Below are positions 39,797 through 46,497 of a stretch of 64,000 bases of DNA, piece after piece. Numbering within the stretch: position 1 is the first letter of the stretch; each line of letters opens with the position of its first letter. Below the pieces are notes generated by a model, which ran no database searches, had not been told where the DNA came from, and saw only the letters and a program-made list of their open reading frames with translations. The translations under genes and the position numbers were made by a program. The DNA lies in the NCBI GenBank assembly GCA_048882325.1, contig JBHLRS010000006.1, positions 32,001-96,000 of the forward strand. Reading direction: 5' to 3'. The stretch is from Candidatus Thorarchaeota archaeon. GTDB lineage: Archaea > Asgardarchaeota > Thorarchaeia > Thorarchaeales > Thorarchaeaceae.

Positions 39797-40864
39797 ATGA
39801 CCGCAGAACTGGATCAAGATAGAGCTGGTGACACCGACATCTCAAATCCGTTCTTCTCAAAAAGGGAGAAAGAGTTTCGGAGATGGGCTAGAGAAAATCC
39901 TCATCTAGTCTATGAAGCTCACCCTGACTCTCTACAGGAAGGATTCGAGTATTTCTTCACAACACGAGCGGATAAACTGCCAGCGGAGCGGCCCTCAGTG
40001 AGACGGATTGGAATGTTTCAAGAGAGAGGTTTGCCAAAACGTGCTATTCCTTCAATTATGCGGACCTTCTTCAATATCATGAGAGGAATAAACGCCAGCT
40101 GGAATGAAACCAACAAGTACCTTGACCATCTGGAACACCAACCGTTCGAGCCCCAACCTGAGCTCTGGTCTGAACTCAGTGAGTGGGTGGGAACAAGATG
40201 GGATGATGTCATTCTCGGTTTTACTGAACTTCCCTCTCAGATGATTTTCAAAGGCAAATCGACTCTCTTTAAGTATGCAATTGTCGTTGGACAGGAGATG
40301 AAGAAGGACAAGATTGACTACGCACCTGACTATAGGGCTGGAAAAGAAGTGATGCGAGTTTATGGAAGCCTGGGATTGGTTGTGAATGACATTGCAAAGT
40401 GGCTTAGGAAAAAGGGTGTTCGTTGCCAGAGCAACCATCCTTTAGGAGGTCTAACAAATACCACAACACTGGCTGGAAAGGCTGGGATGGGTTGGCAAGG
40501 AATGAATGGACTCCTTATCACACCCAAATTTGGCCAACGTATTCGTTTGGCTCCTGTCTTTGTGGAACACAAATACTTCGAGTACACAGACAACAGAGAT
40601 CACGATTGGATTGAGAACTACTGCAAGCTCTGCAGACGATGTGAGAAAGAATGCCCTCAACAAGCGATTTACAGTGAGAAGATAGTGAGAATGGTCGATG
40701 TACCCGGCATTGGGCAGTGGAAAACATGCATCGATCGTGACAAGTGTTTCGACTTCTTCTGGAAAACACTAGGCTGCTCTGTATGTGTGAAGGTGTGTCC
40801 CTTCTCCAAATCCGAGGCTGCTTACGACAGATTGAAGGCTGTTGGTGAGAAGAATAGGACCTGA
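39797..40864 (+). CDS. Reductive dehalogenase/epoxyqueuosine-reductase (RdhA/QueG) family 2x[4Fe-4S], cobalamin-type protein
   Basis: AGMGWQGMNGLLITPKFGQRIRL, CKLCRRCEKECP and C-x9-CSVCVKVCPF. No twin-arginine signal evident. Confidence 0.8.
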   Translation: MTAELDQDRAGDTDISNPFFSKREKEFRRWARENPHLVYEAHPDSLQEGFEYFFTTRADKLPAERPSVRRIGMFQERGLPKRAIPSIMRTFFNIMRGINASWNETNKYLDHLEHQPFEPQPELWSELSEWVGTRWDDVILGFTELPSQMIFKGKSTLFKYAIVVGQEMKKDKIDYAPDYRAGKEVMRVYGSLGLVVNDIAKWLRKKGVRCQSNHPLGGLTNTTTLAGKAGMGWQGMNGLLITPKFGQRIRLAPVFVEHKYFEYTDNRDHDWIENYCKLCRRCEKECPQQAIYSEKIVRMVDVPGIGQWKTCIDRDKCFDFFWKTLGCSVCVKVCPFSKSEAAYDRLKAVGEKNRT

Positions 40865-40913: not shown

Positions 40914-41705
40914 GTGCGGATTAGAATAATGAAGGGAAACGATCCAATGCACGAGCGACTTCACTCAGAACTTTACGCATCTATTGCTACGCTTGACCAG
41001 CTGAAGAAACTCTACGATCTTGGTGCAGTGGATATTCGGTCCTACCAACGCGAGTCACAAGCGCTTCTCAACGATGTTCGTTCACAGATTGAGAATATGC
41101 GTCGTCTGGGTCTTGATATTGGACGATTTGTGTCTAGTGAACGTATTATCGAGGTCTTTCCGGAAGCATCGACGCTCCTGCGACTTGGCAACCTTGCACC
41201 ACGAAGTACTCCTCAAGGGATGACTATGGACCAATTCTATGACTATGTTGGATTGGCAATACTTGATGTTGCCACAGAGCACTCATCACAGGGACTCATG
41301 GGGCTCGCTGAACTTATTGTCGAGGTTGTACGCCGCCTGCCCGAACTTGAATCAGTGACATACAATGATGTCATTGAGGCTGTGAACCGAGTTGCCGACA
41401 ACGGACTTATCCCTGGAATTCGGACTCTCCGTGGTGGTGTGAAAGTTGTAGAACTGAGGCCGCTTGAACTCCGACGCGACCAGGCTGATGTGATCAATCT
41501 AGCTGCTAGCAAAGGGTATGTGTCAGTGGAGGAAGTCATTATGCAACTCAAGTGGTCAGAAGATCATGCCCGACAAGTCTTATCGAGCTTGGTCGATGCT
41601 GGAATGGCTGTCGCAGACATTCGCTTTTCAACGGGTGGTCGATACTATTTCCCTGGTCTAAGAGCACGCGATACTTCGGATCCTCGAGGAACTAGTGCAT
41701 ATTGA
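40914..41705 (+). CDS. Vps28 N-terminal-like domain fused to EAP30/Vps22/Vps36 (ESCRT-II) winged-helix domains
   Basis: N-terminus SELYASIATLDQLKKLYDLGAVDIRSYQRESQALL resembles Vps28 AELYSII.TL..LEKAY..D.I....Y...C..LL. C-terminus DQFYDYVG..GLMGLAEL..DVIEAV..ELRRDQADVINLAASKGYVSVEEVIMQLKWSEDHARQVL..YYFPGL resembles EAP30/Vps22. Confidence 0.85.
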   Translation: MRIRIMKGNDPMHERLHSELYASIATLDQLKKLYDLGAVDIRSYQRESQALLNDVRSQIENMRRLGLDIGRFVSSERIIEVFPEASTLLRLGNLAPRSTPQGMTMDQFYDYVGLAILDVATEHSSQGLMGLAELIVEVVRRLPELESVTYNDVIEAVNRVADNGLIPGIRTLRGGVKVVELRPLELRRDQADVINLAASKGYVSVEEVIMQLKWSEDHARQVLSSLVDAGMAVADIRFSTGGRYYFPGLRARDTSDPRGTSAY

Positions 41706-41707
41706 TT

Positions 41708-42442
41708 CTATGTGGAAACGATAATTGCACCTCGTTTCTCATCAATCCATTCTGCTAATCCTTTCTTCACCATGATTGCCAGAACTATGTGAATATCCCT
41801 CTCTGGGAGAGTAGCAAAGTCTTCATCAACTTCTTGGATGACTATTGACTTCACATCAAGTCTAAGTTTTCCTGTCTTCAAAGCCCAATGGTATAGAATA
41901 TCTGCCCAATCCTCAAGTGGTTTCCAGTAAACTCTCAGCTGTCGTTTCTTTTTATCAACCCACTCAGCAACCTCTTTGTCCACAAGGACTGCCGCAATTT
42001 CCTTGAACGAATCGACTTTGTTCCTTAAATCCTTGAAAGGGGGCTCACTTATGAATGTCGCCAGAGATATAATGTGCACCTTCTTGTCCTCAGTCCACTC
42101 TAAGAGATAGTCTGACCATTCACCCGCCCAGAGTTCCCTGTCTTCTTCTCTAGTAGGCGTTCCATACATCCACTCAGTTTCTTCAACATCTCCCCAACTG
42201 GGCATGATAAAACCAGAATCAGTGGTCAGGGTTTCCATTACTTCTTCAGTCGCACTCTCAGTCTGTTCTTCTTGTTCTTCTGTTACTACAGGTTCAGTGA
42301 CCTCAACAACAACTTCTGGACTATGGATTTCTTCTTGCACTCTTGTTTTTTCAACAGAAGGAACCTCAACTTGCTCTTGTTCTACTGCCTCGGCTTTTTC
42401 CTTGGTCTTAGGTTTCTCTCGTTTTTTTTCTCTGACACCCAA
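41708..42442 (-). CDS. vps25: ESCRT-II Vps25-like protein with acidic low-complexity N-terminal extension
   Basis: WAGEWSDYLLEW, AEWVDKKKRQLRVYWKPLEDWADILYHWA, and a second WH ending GLAEWID. Directly downstream of vps4. Confidence 0.85.
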   Translation of the reverse strand: MGVREKKREKPKTKEKAEAVEQEQVEVPSVEKTRVQEEIHSPEVVVEVTEPVVTEEQEEQTESATEEVMETLTTDSGFIMPSWGDVEETEWMYGTPTREEDRELWAGEWSDYLLEWTEDKKVHIISLATFISEPPFKDLRNKVDSFKEIAAVLVDKEVAEWVDKKKRQLRVYWKPLEDWADILYHWALKTGKLRLDVKSIVIQEVDEDFATLPERDIHIVLAIMVKKGLAEWIDEKRGAIIVST

Positions 42443-42445
42443 TCT

Positions 42446-43654
42446 TTAGGAACCCTCCGCCCAGTCAATGTATCTCTTGACATCCTCTGGAGGGGTTGCA
42501 GGTCGAATGTTTTCTATTGCATGCAGGAAATCATCCCTGGATACGGGACGGATGTCGAGTATCTCCTGCTCATCATCCATTCTACCAGTCCGTTGCAAAT
42601 CCCTGATTGGTTCCATTGCCGCCTCACGACACACGACACTAATGTCTCTCCCACTGTATCCTTCAGTAAGGTCAGCGAGCTCCTCATATTCTACAGTGGG
42701 TGAGACCTCGATGTCTTCGATATGAATCTCGAAGATTTTCGCACGGGCTTCTCTGTCGGGAAGTGGAACATGTATCTTCTTTTCAAACCTCGACCGTAAT
42801 GCAAAGTCCAACTCCCACGGCAGGTTTGTTGCACCGATGAGCGTTACCCGGTCATCCTCATTACTCGCCAGTCCTTGAAGTTCAGTTAGTAACTGCGTCT
42901 TCAGTCGTCTCTCTCCACCAACATCATCCCCTGATCTTGACACCCCAATTGAATCCAACTCATCAATGAAAATTATTGCAGGTTGGTTCTTCCTCGCAAG
43001 TTCAAAGAGGTTCATGACGAGTCGTTCAGATTCACCAAGCCACTTGCTCACAATATTTGCAGCTGAAACATTGAAGAATGTGGCATTGACCTCAGAGGCT
43101 ACTGCTTTCGCTATCAAAGTTTTTCCGCATCCCGCTGGCCCATAGAATAGGATTCCCCTCCATGGTTGTCTCGCCTTGCCTATGAATAATTCCGGATGCT
43201 TCATGGGTGCTAGAATCGCGTCTTCAATTGCTTGTTTTGCATCTGCTAGCCCGGCTACTTCTGACATCTTGATACTCGGACGTTCTGTGATTATTGTATC
43301 AGAAATCATCTCTCTGAGTCGTTTCTCTTCCTCATCAAGCTCCGGTTCAGCACGTGTGGTTGGCACTGGTTCTGCAGTACTTTCATCAACCTTAGGTGGG
43401 GCAACAAGACCGTCAACTGGGCCATGCGATTTCTTCTTTATACCTGAGAGATATCTGACCCTGTCTACGCATTCTTGAGCTCGGTCAAAGTAGTGCTTTT
43501 TGATTGAAGGCAATGACGCAGAGTTTGACAGTTTGATGAGGATCTTACTAGCCTTGAGATACTCCTGGCAAGCCTCCTTCTTCATCCCCTTATTGTCCAA
43601 TTCTATTGCTTTGGCAAGTAGTGCTTTCAGCCCGTGGTCTACTCGATCCGCCAT
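42446..43654 (-). CDS. vps4: Vps4 AAA+ ATPase with N-terminal MIT domain
   Basis: MIT (AKAIELDNKG..EACQEY), PWRGILFYGPAGCGKT, SKWLGESERL, IIFIDELD, GATNLPWELD..RSRFEKKIHVPLPD, TEGYSGRDI. Confidence 0.95.
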   Translation of the reverse strand: MADRVDHGLKALLAKAIELDNKGMKKEACQEYLKASKILIKLSNSASLPSIKKHYFDRAQECVDRVRYLSGIKKKSHGPVDGLVAPPKVDESTAEPVPTTRAEPELDEEEKRLREMISDTIITERPSIKMSEVAGLADAKQAIEDAILAPMKHPELFIGKARQPWRGILFYGPAGCGKTLIAKAVASEVNATFFNVSAANIVSKWLGESERLVMNLFELARKNQPAIIFIDELDSIGVSRSGDDVGGERRLKTQLLTELQGLASNEDDRVTLIGATNLPWELDFALRSRFEKKIHVPLPDREARAKIFEIHIEDIEVSPTVEYEELADLTEGYSGRDISVVCREAAMEPIRDLQRTGRMDDEQEILDIRPVSRDDFLHAIENIRPATPPEDVKRYIDWAEGS

Positions 43655-43776: not shown

Positions 43777-44049
43777 GTGACAGATACAACTAATCACTAT
43801 CCTGTCGACATGATGGAATGGCGAGACTGGATCAAGAAGAATCTGGGTTATACAACAGAACAGGGAATCGAGTTTGTTCGAGCTGGCACTTTTCCGGTAT
43901 CGGAGCTTGTAGCGGTTTGGCGACAAGAATTCACTGTAGAGAAAGGGTATGTTGCTGATTTCATCCCGGCCTTAGAACGTAATAAGATGGGCTTCTTGCG
44001 TTGGATATATGCTGACGGAGCTGAGCCTTTTTGGAAAGAATCTGATTGA
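43777..44049 (+). CDS. Small hypothetical protein inside the ESCRT locus
   Basis: 90-aa ORF filling the gap between vps4 and ESCRT-III, with globular, Trp-rich composition. No family recognised. Confidence 0.65.
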   Translation: MTDTTNHYPVDMMEWRDWIKKNLGYTTEQGIEFVRAGTFPVSELVAVWRQEFTVEKGYVADFIPALERNKMGFLRWIYADGAEPFWKESD

Positions 44050-44132: not shown

Positions 44133-44750
44133 GTGAGATTCTTGAGTCCAATTAGAAAGGCATTCTCCTGGGGAAGAAAGAAACCAGATATTGGTGAGAT
44201 ATCCAGCCGTCTAAGGATTCTATCTAAACAACTAGCACGCCAGAGGAACAAGTTGGAAAAGGAGGAACGAGATACAAAGGCACGTGCAGTTCGCGCAAGA
44301 AAGGCTGGACAGACTGAGGCGTACCGAACATATGCAACAGAAATGGTACGGTTCCGTAGATATGCTCTCGCGGTTGATAAATCACGGTTACAAATTCTGA
44401 AAATTCTGGCTCACCTGAATCGCGCTCAGACATCCGCAAAAACCACTATAGCACTCCAAGAAGTTGCCAAGATATTAGGGATGCTTGGTGATGGCACTGA
44501 TGCTTCAAAGGTTGTTGCAAATGTCGATGAGATTGCTCGACGCCTTGAAGAGTTTGAGATTGAAGCAAGTATATCTGACGAAGCTCTCGATTCAACGATG
44601 GAAGTGAGTTCAGAAGACCTTACATTTGCCTTTCAGGAAATTGATGCTGAAGCTGGGCTCGCAGATACACCAACTGCTGCAAGACCTGCTAGCGAGGCTG
44701 AAACCCTAGAGGAAGATATCAAAGCGCTAGAACGGGAATTGGGAGTATAA
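44133..44750 (+). CDS. ESCRT-III subunit, Vps2/24/46 class
   Basis: Basic helical hairpin LRILSKQLARQRNKLEKEE..KAGQTEAYRTYATEMVRFR, acidic C-terminal half, C-terminal MIM-like LEEDIKALERELGV. Adjacent to vps4. Confidence 0.9.
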   Translation: MRFLSPIRKAFSWGRKKPDIGEISSRLRILSKQLARQRNKLEKEERDTKARAVRARKAGQTEAYRTYATEMVRFRRYALAVDKSRLQILKILAHLNRAQTSAKTTIALQEVAKILGMLGDGTDASKVVANVDEIARRLEEFEIEASISDEALDSTMEVSSEDLTFAFQEIDAEAGLADTPTAARPASEAETLEEDIKALERELGV

Positions 44751-44752
44751 TA

Positions 44753-46312
44753 TTACCAGAGCTGGTCTCGACTCTCTCTTGTTGCCCGTTCCATCTCACG
44801 CATGTTGTGATACGAATCTCTCATCAGATCTCTATATCGCCTGATGAAGTCCTCAGCAACAAGCTGACCACTGCGTAGCATGTGTACTGTATCCCGAATA
44901 GCAGTTTCAATTGACGCAGCATCTCTTCTCAGTGAGTGCATTCTTGGACTCATATCATAAGTGTGACTTGTACTCGGTCTCCTATCATATTGTCCAATAA
45001 CTCGATCGAGCTCCTCTCGGAATGACTCTGGTTTTTGGTAGTAGCTATCGTATGGGTATCGCCGAATTGGTGGTGAATCCAAATCACTGGAACGATGTCT
45101 TGGACCTGGTCGCATCAAAGGCATATCCTCACTATACTGTGACCTGTCATTTGTCGAGAGAAGTGAGTAAACCATTCCCTCAATCTTCAGTCGAACATCA
45201 CTAGTGCCGATATCAGTTTGTTCGATTTTCCTGACTCTCTGCATATCTGTTTGGATGTATTTGTCAAATTTTCTTGCAATCTCGATATAATCAGGTAGGA
45301 CTCTCTTTGTTTGGTCTGAGCATGTTGCTTTAATCTCGCCTTGTTTCAACTTCAACACAAGCCGTTTTCTTAGCCTACCGTCTTCCTCAATGGACTTTAG
45401 ATAGAGGAGGGGAAAATCGAATACCGTTTCCATCTTCTTGCGAACCCTGCCGGTTTCAGCAATGAAGAGGAGTCTCTTGTTCGTAATGTACAGAGTCCCA
45501 AACGCCTTGTCATTTTTCAGAAAATCACTCCCTGCTATCTTAACCTCTGGGAGTGCACAGACAGGAAGCTCACCTACTGCGAGTTGACCGTGCTCGTAGA
45601 ATGTGGTGAATTGTCCCTTGTAATAATCAAGACCATCAAGCTGTCGCCTCACATCCTTTAGTGTTCCTCTGAGGGGTTCAAGTGCCTCGTCAACATTCTG
45701 TTTGTAGTAGATCCCCATTTCTGTAATTCTGTTTGTTATCCCCTCAACGAATGGAAATTGTGCTGGTTTCCATTGTGTATAATCTATGAAATCCTTTGTT
45801 TCTGCAGCCATGCGTTTTGCTATGATTTCAGCTTGACTTGAAATCCTATTCTTGATTGCTGGTAGCTCATTTTGAATTCCTTCAATCTTCTCCTCTATCC
45901 ACTTGTAATGCAGAAAATTAGCCATCCTGAGGGACACAAGTAATCTCTTCGCGCTAGACAGTTTGTTCGTGAACTCTCTGAGTTTTGTATGACCATATTG
46001 GATGGTCATAATGGCATGTCGCATATCAAGGGCCAAGGTTCTTCTTCTATCTTCAAGGAGCACAACTCTCGATGAATGGCATCTTGAACAGATGTCCACA
46101 GTCTTTCTTCCTTTGCTCAGTTCCTCTGATTCACACTGAGGACATTTTTCAAATTTCTCGCCCGGCATTGGAGTACCAAGAATGTGGTGACATTCGCTGC
46201 AAACGGTGTATTCACTAGACCTAGATTCAAGACATCCTGAACACAGTGCAGCACCACAATCTTCGCACATATGAGTAGGCCTTTCAGTCTGACAGGATCT
46301 GCATTGTCCCAT
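44753..46312 (-). CDS. Zn-finger + coiled-coil + PH/GRAM(GLUE)-like + C-terminal steadiness-box-like protein (putative ESCRT-I Vps23/37-related)
   Basis: Six CxxC pairs at the N-terminus, long coiled coil, FGTLYITNKRLLFIA (PH-like), Pro/Arg-rich linker, IETAIRDTVHMLRSGQLVAEDFIRRYRDLMRDSY. Start taken as ATG 46312 (track start is TTG 46330). Confidence 0.8.
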   Translation of the reverse strand: MGQCRSCQTERPTHMCEDCGAALCSGCLESRSSEYTVCSECHHILGTPMPGEKFEKCPQCESEELSKGRKTVDICSRCHSSRVVLLEDRRRTLALDMRHAIMTIQYGHTKLREFTNKLSSAKRLLVSLRMANFLHYKWIEEKIEGIQNELPAIKNRISSQAEIIAKRMAAETKDFIDYTQWKPAQFPFVEGITNRITEMGIYYKQNVDEALEPLRGTLKDVRRQLDGLDYYKGQFTTFYEHGQLAVGELPVCALPEVKIAGSDFLKNDKAFGTLYITNKRLLFIAETGRVRKKMETVFDFPLLYLKSIEEDGRLRKRLVLKLKQGEIKATCSDQTKRVLPDYIEIARKFDKYIQTDMQRVRKIEQTDIGTSDVRLKIEGMVYSLLSTNDRSQYSEDMPLMRPGPRHRSSDLDSPPIRRYPYDSYYQKPESFREELDRVIGQYDRRPSTSHTYDMSPRMHSLRRDAASIETAIRDTVHMLRSGQLVAEDFIRRYRDLMRDSYHNMREMERATRESRDQLW

Positions 46313-46497
46313 TAGTGAATCTTTTGTCAAATGAGTACCTCCGGTCGTCTATTTACATCGAGGAGTTATCCAAGAATAACCCGTGTATTATTCGGGAAAC
46401 ATTGGAGTATCCCTCTTCAAATGTTCAGAAAGTATGTTCAAGCCATATCAGTTATAACCGGCTTGATAGGCTGGAGCTTAAATCAAAGGGGATTTTC

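What the first reader, a model, noticed from the sequence alone, without database searches (positions are those of the whole stretch)
40914..41705. ESCRT-I/ESCRT-II fusion: Vps28 N-terminal domain joined to Vps22/36 winged helices
Seen: the first ~90 aa match the Vps28 N-terminal pattern (ELY..I.TL..L.K.Y..G.V....Y......LL, later FPEA..LL.LG), directly followed by DQFY and two EAP30-like WH domains. There is no room for a Vps28 C-terminal four-helix bundle. Inference: the fusion replaces the non-covalent ESCRT-I-to-II bridge, which bears on how that bridge evolved.
Basis: partly seen in the sequence, partly recalled or inferred. Interest (0 to 1): 0.8.

Follow-up and report, generated by a model that had tools for sequence, protein, structure and literature searches.

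The report
Vps28 head fused to Thorarchaeal Vps22
This Thorarchaeota gene really does join the front domain of the ESCRT-I protein Vps28 to the winged-helix body of the ESCRT-II protein Vps22, probably tying two membrane-sorting complexes together in one chain, but the fusion was already published in 2024.

Summary
The gene most likely starts at the ATG at 40947 and encodes 252 aa.

- **Front domain:** about 85 residues are a genuine Vps28 N-terminal domain. hhalign against Asgard Vps28 gives 99%, E 3.7e-18. The 12 best PDB fold matches are all Vps28-N chains.
- **Back domain:** two Vps22 winged helices (human SNF8, E 1e-16).
- **Not the ordinary Vps22 N-terminus:** hhalign gives 0.6% against it.
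- **Not an assembly artefact:** 84 of 85 genomes of the same family, and the one sister-family genome, have the full-length fusion.
- **Free Vps28 is missing:** these genomes lack it (1 of 85, against 246 of 314 other Asgard genomes). They also lack any Vps28 C-terminal domain (0 of 41; positive control 5 of 5).
- **Likely origin:** in other Asgard lineages vps28 sits directly upstream of vps22, which suggests fusion by deletion.
- **Likely partner:** a complex prediction supports docking of the Vps28-like domain on the C-terminal hairpin of the neighbouring Znr_PH_CC_SB protein. This is not shown.

The architecture is already published. Makarova et al. 2024 (mBio, Table S3) list a Thorarchaeota Vps22 whose residues 1-70 hit the Vps28 N-domain at 99%. 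Hatano et al. 2022 used the ortholog as "Vps22". This scan has also reached the same verdict on other Thorarchaeota genomes. It is real and interesting biology, but not new.

The parts
40947..41705 (+). vps28N-vps22 chimera gene, 252 aa plus stop. The GTG at 40914 is an upstream in-frame alternative start that homologs do not support.
   Evidence: most homologs are 252-253 aa and conservation begins at M12
40947..41198 (+). Vps28 N-terminal (steadiness-box type) domain: a helical hairpin plus three short helices
   Evidence: hhalign 99.0%, E 3.7e-18 against Asgard Vps28. Profile search retrieves Vps28 proteins. AF2 helices 2-24, 30-53, 58-64, 67-70 and 72-78. The 12 best PDB fold matches are all Vps28-N.
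41199..41222 (+). Poorly conserved linker at the fusion junction
   Evidence: Low conservation in the alignment. pLDDT dips to 66. hhalign to Vps28 ends at residue 95 and hhalign to Vps22 starts at residue 101.
41223..41459 (+). Vps22 winged helix 1
   Evidence: Pfam EAP30 E 4e-14; SNF8 3cuq_A E 1.3e-16; AF2 secondary structure; hhalign 100%, E 1.6e-40 against Asgard Vps22
41460..41660 (+). Vps22 winged helix 2
   Evidence: Same evidence as winged helix 1
41708..42442 (-). Vps25 homolog (ESCRT-II) with a roughly 100-aa acidic N-terminal extension, convergent with the chimera gene
   Evidence: Pfam ESCRT-II (PF05871) E 1.3e-14, residues 104-193
42446..43654 (-). Vps4 AAA ATPase (MIT, AAA and Vps4_C domains)
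   Evidence: Pfam AAA E 4.3e-40, Vps4_C, MIT
44133..44750 (+). ESCRT-III (Snf7 family) subunit
   Evidence: Pfam Snf7 E 3.2e-11
44753..46330 (-). Znr_PH_CC_SB protein (Zn ribbons, coiled coil, PH/GRAM-like domain, C-terminal steadiness-box hairpin), the proposed partner. It is the ortholog of ThorAB25_08990 'SB' of Hatano 2022. The exact start is uncertain.
   Evidence: Weak Pfam bPH_3 and GRAM hits. Sequence printed in Hatano Suppl. Data 1. Family described by Makarova 2024. Present in 41 of 41 Thor-family genomes sampled and on the same contig as the chimera.
44756..44944 (-). C-terminal steadiness-box hairpin of Znr_PH_CC_SB. The predicted contact surface is residues 482-511 (44798-44887).
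   Evidence: Most conserved stretch of the protein's tail. Predicted interface.

Best explanation
The gene encodes a natural chimera specific to the Thorarchaeota order. The N-terminal helical-hairpin domain of the ESCRT-I subunit Vps28 is joined by a short linker to the two winged helices of the ESCRT-II subunit Vps22. It takes the place of the canonical Vps22 N-terminal helices. This much is shown.

The rest is inferred:
- The winged helices still bind the neighbouring Vps25, which recruits ESCRT-III and Vps4.
- The Vps28-like domain packs against the C-terminal steadiness-box hairpin of the neighbouring Zn-ribbon/PH/coiled-coil protein (Znr_PH_CC_SB), as Vps28-N packs against Vps23-C in the ESCRT-I headpiece.
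- A membrane- or cargo-recognising, ESCRT-I-like module would then be wired covalently to ESCRT-II, without a Vps28 C-terminal domain, UEV or ubiquitin.
- The fusion most likely arose by a deletion between abutting vps28 and vps22 genes. That deletion removed the Vps28 C-terminal bundle and the Vps22 N-terminal helices.
For: Architecture:
- hhalign of the N-domain against Asgard Vps28 gives 99.0%, E 3.7e-18.
- The N-domain profile finds 51 proteins among 1.84e9. Of 43 scanned, 30 carry Pfam VPS28 and only 2 carry EAP30. Of those 2, P0131 lies in the sister family of the order. P0126 was not placed; it is 62% identical to this protein.
- The domain-only AF2 model has Vps28-N chains as its top 12 PDB matches.
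- The C-terminal part gives hhalign 100%, E 1.6e-40 against Asgard Vps22, starting at residue 101, and SNF8 E 1.3e-16.

Derived state:
- Non-Thor Asgard Vps22 proteins match Pfam EAP30 over positions 1-219. Their N-termini are unrelated to this one (0.6%).

Distribution:
- The full-length fusion is in 84/85 genomes of the family and 1/1 of the sister family.
- Pfam VPS28 above cut-off is in 1/85 of the family against 246/314 other Asgard genomes.
- The Vps28 C-domain profile hits 0/41 Thor genomes and 5/5 control genomes from other families.
- A full Asgard Vps28 profile hits only this ORF in the own genome (2.3e-15).
- No E2/UEV fold, ubiquitin or Vps23_core was detected in the own genome, which is 93% complete. 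The E2 control rang in 5/5 genomes.

Origin:
- vps28 lies immediately upstream of vps22 on the same strand in about 46 of 48 non-Thor genomes where both places were listed.
- The two ORFs abut or overlap in several of the fetched loci.

Partner:
- Znr_PH_CC_SB is present in 41/41 family genomes.
- Complex prediction scored 0.81, with the best of 3 controls at 0.28. That mark was reached by 58 of 80 solved complexes and 2 of 110 mismatched pairs. The runs agree in at least 97% of contacts and the partner's pLDDT is at least 82.
- The predicted contacts fall on the most conserved residues of both proteins.

Published support:
- Makarova 2024, Table S3: Thor Vps22 residues 1-70 against PF03997, 99%.
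- Hatano 2022: Y2H suggests the free steadiness-box protein of Loki and Thor interacts with Vps28.
Against: - Binding to Znr_PH_CC_SB and to Vps25 was not measured here.
- The complex prediction resembles solved Vps23-C:Vps28-N structures (2F6M, 2CAZ, 6VME). Its pass may reflect that likeness and not this pair. My own alignments were used, so the calibration holds only roughly.
- Hatano 2022 report that Thor Vps22 interacts with itself in Y2H. The hairpin might therefore serve self-association instead.
- Eme 2023 and Makarova 2024 report a Thorarchaeial BAR protein fused to a distant Vps28-like region (HHpred 84% to 2J9U_A). I could not detect it in this genome. A remote Vps28-C-like module may therefore still exist.
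- The deletion origin is inferred from synteny only. No intermediate form was seen.
- Pfam VPS28 on this protein alone is below the cut-off.
Confidence: 0.72

Rival explanations
1. The Vps28-like hairpin serves mainly to dimerise the chimera. It would replace the lost Vps22 N-terminal helices, which in eukaryotes help pair Vps22 with Vps36. It would not bridge to an ESCRT-I-like partner.
For: Hatano 2022 report Y2H self-interaction of Thor Vps22. Asgard genomes have a single Vps22/36-like gene thought to homodimerise. The canonical N-terminal helices are missing here.
Against: The complex prediction with the Znr_PH_CC_SB tail passed (0.81 against best control 0.28). The partner gene is conserved in 41/41 family genomes and in the same cluster. 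Steadiness-box hairpins typically form hetero-assemblies. The two roles are not mutually exclusive.
Confidence: 0.2
2. The N-terminal region is just the ordinary Vps22 N-terminal helical domain, or a generic coiled-coil resemblance, and there is no real fusion.
For: The region has the same length (about 90 aa) as the canonical Vps22 N-terminus. Pfam VPS28 is below its cut-off (E 0.023). The PDB profile hits are marginal (E about 0.05).
Against: hhalign gives 99.0% against Vps28 and 0.6% against canonical Asgard Vps22. Thirty of 43 database hits of the N-domain profile are Pfam VPS28 proteins. The top 12 fold matches are Vps28-N over 80 or more columns. Canonical Vps22 proteins cover EAP30 positions 1-81; this protein does not.
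Confidence: 0.02
3. The fusion is an assembly or gene-calling artefact that joins two adjacent genes.
For: vps28 and vps22 are adjacent in other Asgard lineages. The genome is a metagenome-style assembly of 89 contigs.
Against: The same uninterrupted 250-280-aa frame occurs in 84/85 independently assembled family genomes and in the sister family, and in over 100 protein clusters from several sources. There is no Vps28 C-domain or Vps22 N-domain remnant. The junction is in frame and conserved.
Confidence: 0.01
4. A steadiness-box or Vps28-like N-terminus is the ancestral state of all Asgard Vps22 proteins, following a literal reading of 'Vps22 family proteins (cog.002769) are fused to an SB'. 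Thorarchaeota simply kept it.
For: The wording of Makarova 2024, and cog.002769 includes Heimdall proteins. A few non-Thor matches to the full-length profile extend into positions 19-46.
Against: Seven non-Thor Vps22 proteins from seven families, all that were scanned, match Pfam EAP30 from position 1-2, as eukaryotic Vps22 does. The profile of 17 non-Thor Vps22 proteins from 13 families shows no relation to the Thor N-domain (0.6%). The only supporting row in Table S3 is a Thorarchaeota protein. Free Vps28 is present wherever the canonical Vps22 is.
Confidence: 0.05

Closest known systems
Thorarchaeota 'Vps22' with an SB/Vps28-N head (KXH75178.1 in Makarova et al. 2024 mBio Table S3; ThorAB25_09030 in Hatano et al. 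2022 Nat Commun Suppl. Data 1)
   Same: An ortholog with the same length, the same Vps28-N plus two winged-helix architecture and the same gene cluster (Vps25, Vps4, ESCRT-III, 'SB' protein). Makarova list residues 1-70 against PF03997 at 99%.
   Different: Nothing of substance; this is another species' copy. The papers do not state that the head replaces the canonical Vps22 N-terminus only in Thorarchaeota. They also do not state that free Vps28 and Vps28-C are missing there. Both points are shown here.
Canonical Vps22/SNF8/EAP30 (eukaryotes; other Asgard lineages)
   Same: Two tandem winged helices (SNF8 3cuq_A E 1.3e-16; hhalign 100%). It is adjacent to Vps25.
   Different: The canonical N-terminal helices (Pfam EAP30 positions 1-81) are absent and are replaced by a Vps28-N domain.
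Vps28 (ESCRT-I; eukaryotes and most Asgard lineages)
   Same: The N-terminal hairpin domain is homologous in sequence and fold. It is predicted to pack on a steadiness-box hairpin as in the ESCRT-I headpiece.
   Different: It lacks the C-terminal four-helix bundle that contacts ESCRT-II. The domain is instead covalently attached to ESCRT-II.
Heimdallarchaeota UEV-Vps23-Vps28 fusion (HeimAB125_14070, Hatano 2022)
   Same: Another Asgard case in which ESCRT subunits that are separate in eukaryotes are joined in one chain. Its Vps28-N segment is retrieved by the same profile.
   Different: That fusion lies within ESCRT-I and keeps Vps28-C and a ubiquitin-binding UEV. This one spans ESCRT-I and ESCRT-II and occurs in a genome without detectable UEV or ubiquitin.

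Membership tests
Vps22/EAP30 (PF04157) | Two tandem winged-helix domains homologous to SNF8/Vps22 | tested here: met
   Pfam E 4e-14 above cut-off; 3cuq_A E 1.3e-16; Foldseek 3cuq_A E 6.9e-10; hhalign 100% against Asgard Vps22
Vps22/EAP30 (PF04157) | Canonical N-terminal helical region (profile positions 1-81) | tested here: not met
   The match starts at profile position 82. hhalign gives 0.6% against the N-termini of canonical Asgard Vps22, which do cover positions 1-219.
Vps22/EAP30 (PF04157) | Forms the ESCRT-II complex with Vps25 | not tested
   Only gene adjacency with a Vps25 homolog was seen. No binding test was run.
Vps28 (PF03997) | N-terminal hairpin domain that joins the ESCRT-I headpiece | tested here: met
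   hhalign 99.0%, E 3.7e-18. Thirty of 43 profile hits are VPS28 proteins. The top 12 fold matches are Vps28-N. Pfam on the single sequence is below cut-off (14.9 against 24.5 bits).
Vps28 (PF03997) | C-terminal four-helix bundle that binds ESCRT-II | tested here: not met
   The AF2 model goes from the linker straight into WH1. The Vps28-C profile finds nothing in 41 Thor genomes including this one, with a 5/5 positive control.
SB-fused Asgard Vps22 ('Vps22#', Makarova 2024) | Steadiness-box type hairpin followed by two winged helices, in an ESCRT cluster | tested here: met
   The published example row is in Table S3.
ESCRT-I headpiece-like assembly | Vps28-N packs against the steadiness-box hairpin of a Vps23-like partner | tested here: inconclusive
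   Complex prediction with the Znr_PH_CC_SB tail scored 0.81 against a best control of 0.28. That mark was reached by 58 of 80 solved complexes and 2 of 110 mismatched pairs. This supports binding but does not show it, and a like complex has been solved.

The most novel reading that the evidence does not exclude
The Vps28N-Vps22 chimera is not a general Asgard feature. It is a single derived event of the Thorarchaeota order.
- It arose by an in-frame deletion between abutting vps28 and vps22 genes.
- It went together with loss of free Vps28, Vps28-C, UEV and ubiquitin.
- The result is a merged, ubiquitin-independent ESCRT-I/II complex nucleated on Znr_PH_CC_SB.
This would be a natural experiment showing that the Vps28-C bridge can be replaced by a peptide bond.
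Probability: 0.5. Interest if true: 0.45.

Novelty: already known. Interest (0 to 1): 0.3.

Why it matters
The ESCRT-I to ESCRT-II hand-off is a defining step of eukaryotic endosomal sorting. A lineage that hard-wires the two complexes and drops ubiquitin recognition shows how modular the machinery was in the archaeal relatives of eukaryotes.

The architecture itself is published.
- the fusion is confined to the Thorarchaeota order;
- it replaces the canonical Vps22 N-terminus instead of being added to it;
- it coincides with loss of free Vps28 and Vps28-C;
- it has a plausible origin from the conserved vps28-vps22 gene pair;
- it has a testable predicted partner interface.

Tried and rejected
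- **Pfam on the single sequence:** only a sub-threshold VPS28 hit. NCBIfam gave nothing useful.
- **Fold search with the whole model:** dominated by the winged helices and blind to the N-domain. I therefore folded and searched the domain alone.
- **Other weak PF03997 hits in the genome (contigs C4 and C58):** rejected. Their ORFs show only coiled-coil or Zn-ribbon noise in Pfam. The C4 ORF gives hhalign 4% against Vps28.
- **The published Thorarchaeial BAR-Vps28 protein:** looked for with PF09325 and with the Asgard Vps28 profile. Nothing significant was found in this genome, so its presence here is undetermined.
- **Read or RNA support:** I did not pursue this by other means.
- **The 90-aa ORF at 43777-44049:** considered as an ESCRT accessory gene. 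It was not found in 29 other Thor loci that should cover that position, so it was not included.
- **A tree of Vps28-N domains:** considered and not built. About 85 columns would not resolve the donor.

Full report
**Locus and organism.** The window lies in a 3.6-Mb, 93%-complete genome. The close homologs of its proteins are named Candidatus Thorarchaeota or Promethearchaeota in public records. The reported ORF sits in a typical Asgard ESCRT cluster:
- the ORF itself (40914/40947-41705, +);
- Vps25 (41708-42442, -);
- Vps4 (42446-43654, -);
- an ESCRT-III/Snf7 gene (44133-44750, +);
- a 525-aa Zn-ribbon/coiled-coil/PH-like protein (44753-46330, -).

**Checking the observation.**
- More than 100 homologs, mostly 252-253 aa, start at the methionine that is residue 12 of the ORF as listed. 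Conservation also starts there. The gene therefore most likely begins at the ATG at 40947.
- Pfam gives EAP30 at E 4e-14 for residues 90-235, but only from profile position 82 onward. It gives a sub-threshold VPS28 hit (E 0.023) that starts at profile position 2.
- Residues 105-249 align to human SNF8/Vps22 (3cuq_A, E 1.3e-16).
- I built a profile of the first 93 residues from 19 Thorarchaeota sequences. In the PDB its best natural hits are four yeast Vps28-N constructs, at marginal E-values.
- Against 1.84 billion representative proteins the profile finds 51 proteins at E <= 1e-3. Of the 43 that are not fragments, 30 carry Pfam VPS28 (best 3.7e-19), 6 carry Vps23_core, 4 UQ_con and 2 UEV. These last groups are the known UEV-Vps23-Vps28 fusions. 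Only 2 carry EAP30.
- A profile-profile comparison with 14 full-length Vps28 proteins from other Asgard families gives 99.0%, E 3.7e-18, over 80 gap-free columns.
- AlphaFold2 models the protein (pLDDT 87) as a helical hairpin plus three short helices, a 12-residue linker, and two winged helices.
- The whole model matches Vps22 structures (3cuq_A, E 6.9e-10).
- The N-domain folded alone (pLDDT 86.6) has Vps28-N chains of ESCRT-I headpiece structures as its 12 best PDB matches. These are 6vme, 2f6m, 2caz, 2p22 and 2f66, with TM 0.52-0.73 and rmsd mostly 2.5-3.6 A over 80 or more columns. A sharp drop follows.

**Is it the ordinary Vps22 N-terminus?** No.
- I fetched vps28-vps22 regions from 18 genomes of other Asgard families and the sister family.
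- All seven non-Thor Vps22 proteins I scanned match Pfam EAP30 over positions 1/2-219, as eukaryotic Vps22 does.
- The profile of 17 non-Thor Vps22 proteins shows no relation to the Thor N-domain (hhalign 0.6%).
- The Thor protein aligns to them at 100%, E 1.6e-40, but only from residue 101 onward.
- The Vps28-N domain therefore replaces the canonical Vps22 N-terminal helices. The junction lies at about residues 96-103.

**Distribution.**
- A full-length profile searched over 400 Asgard genomes finds end-to-end matches (positions 1 to about 249, in frames of 250-280 aa) in 84 of 85 genomes of the same family. It also finds one in the single genome of the sister family of the order.
- Other families mostly match only the winged-helix part.
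- The diverged EAP30-bearing hit P0131 belongs to that sister family (88% identical).
- Pfam VPS28 above its cut-off is found in 246 of 314 genomes of other Asgard families but in only 1 of 85 of the Thor family, and not in this genome.
- A profile of the Vps28 C-terminal domain finds nothing at E <= 0.01 in 41 Thor-family genomes. It finds the domain in 5 of 5 genomes from families not used to build it.
- A profile of full-length Asgard Vps28 hits only this ORF in the own genome (2.3e-15).
- No E2/UEV fold, ubiquitin or Vps23 core is detectable in this genome. The E2 control rang in 5 of 5 other Asgard genomes. This agrees with published statements that Thorarchaeota lack ubiquitin and UEV-Vps23.
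- Recurrence in 85 independent assemblies excludes an assembly chimera.

**Origin (inferred).**
- For about 48 non-Thor genomes both genes were listed. In about 46 of them vps28 lies directly upstream of vps22 on the same strand.
- In the fetched loci the two ORFs abut or overlap in about ten cases.
- One deletion spanning the Vps28 C-domain, the gene boundary and the Vps22 N-terminal helices would yield the Thor gene.

**Mechanism (inferred).**
- The 525-aa neighbour is the Znr_PH_CC_SB family of Makarova et al. and the 'SB' protein ThorAB25_08990 of Hatano et al..
- It is present in 41 of 41 sampled family genomes, and on the same contig as the chimera where both were listed.
- Its tail has a highly conserved helix-turn-helix.
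- A complex prediction of that tail with the Vps28-like domain scored 0.81, with the best of 3 controls at 0.28. That mark was reached by 58 of 80 solved complexes and 2 of 110 mismatched pairs. The runs agree in at least 97% of contacts and the partner's pLDDT is at least 82.
- This supports binding but does not show it. Vps23-C:Vps28-N complexes have been solved, so the pass may reflect that likeness.
- The contacts fall on the invariant residues of both sides.
- Hatano et al. report Y2H hints that the free steadiness-box protein of Loki and Thor interacts with Vps28, and that Thor Vps22 self-interacts. Self-interaction keeps a dimerisation role open.

**Comparison with what is known.**
- Makarova et al. 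2024 (mBio, PMC10936438) state that Asgard Vps22 family proteins are fused to a steadiness box.
- Their Table S3 lists Thorarchaeota Vps22 KXH75178.1, residues 1-70, against PF03997 'VPS28 protein (N-terminal domain - SB)' at 99%.
- Hatano et al. 2022 used the ortholog ThorAB25_09030 as 'Vps22'.
- The architecture is therefore published. Earlier follow-ups in this scan reached the same verdict on other Thorarchaeota genomes.
Cog.002769 also includes Heimdall proteins. Seventeen Vps22 proteins sampled from 13 other Asgard families, none of them those Heimdall records, have canonical N-termini.
- It also adds the complementary loss of Vps28 and Vps28-C, the synteny-based origin, and a predicted partner interface.

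**Caveat.** Eme et al. 2023 and Makarova's Table S3 mention a Thorarchaeial BAR protein with a distant Vps28-like region. I could not detect it here.

**Verdict.** The novelty class is 'already known', and the interest is modest.

Noticed in passing
window 43777-44049 (+): A 90-aa Trp-rich ORF lies between vps4 and the ESCRT-III gene. It has no Pfam or NCBIfam hit. tblastn did not find it in 29 other Thor-family loci that extend about 1.5 kb past the Znr_PH_CC_SB gene. It is either genus-specific or not a gene.
   Followed up: partly
window 41708-42442 (-): The Vps25 homolog carries a roughly 100-residue, highly acidic Glu/Val/Thr-rich N-terminal extension before the Pfam ESCRT-II match (residues 104-193).
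   Followed up: no
G000 contig C36:17191-17739 (locus L005) and C9:67802-68140 (locus L006): Two further long ORFs (open frames of 815 and 693 aa) have sub-threshold EAP30-like winged-helix matches (25.7 and 22.7 bits). Most Thor-family genomes also show a second, weaker match to the Vps22 profile. These may be additional ESCRT-II-like multidomain proteins.
   Followed up: no
window 36013-37260 (+): A 415-aa protein has a C-terminal Ras/Roc-type small GTPase domain (Pfam Ras E 9.9e-12) behind a roughly 210-aa unannotated N-terminal region. It lies a few kb upstream of the ESCRT cluster.
   Followed up: no
loci L028-L045 (non-Thor Asgard genomes): The gene order vps28 then vps22, on the same strand and often abutting or overlapping by a few bases, is conserved across at least 12 Asgard families. 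In families f4 and f18 the Vps28 carries a roughly 90-110-aa N-terminal extension (293-303 aa in total).
   Followed up: partly
window 39797-40864 (+): The gene directly upstream of the chimera encodes a 355-aa protein with a C-terminal double 4Fe-4S cluster domain (Pfam Fer4 family hits). It appears unrelated to ESCRT.
   Followed up: no
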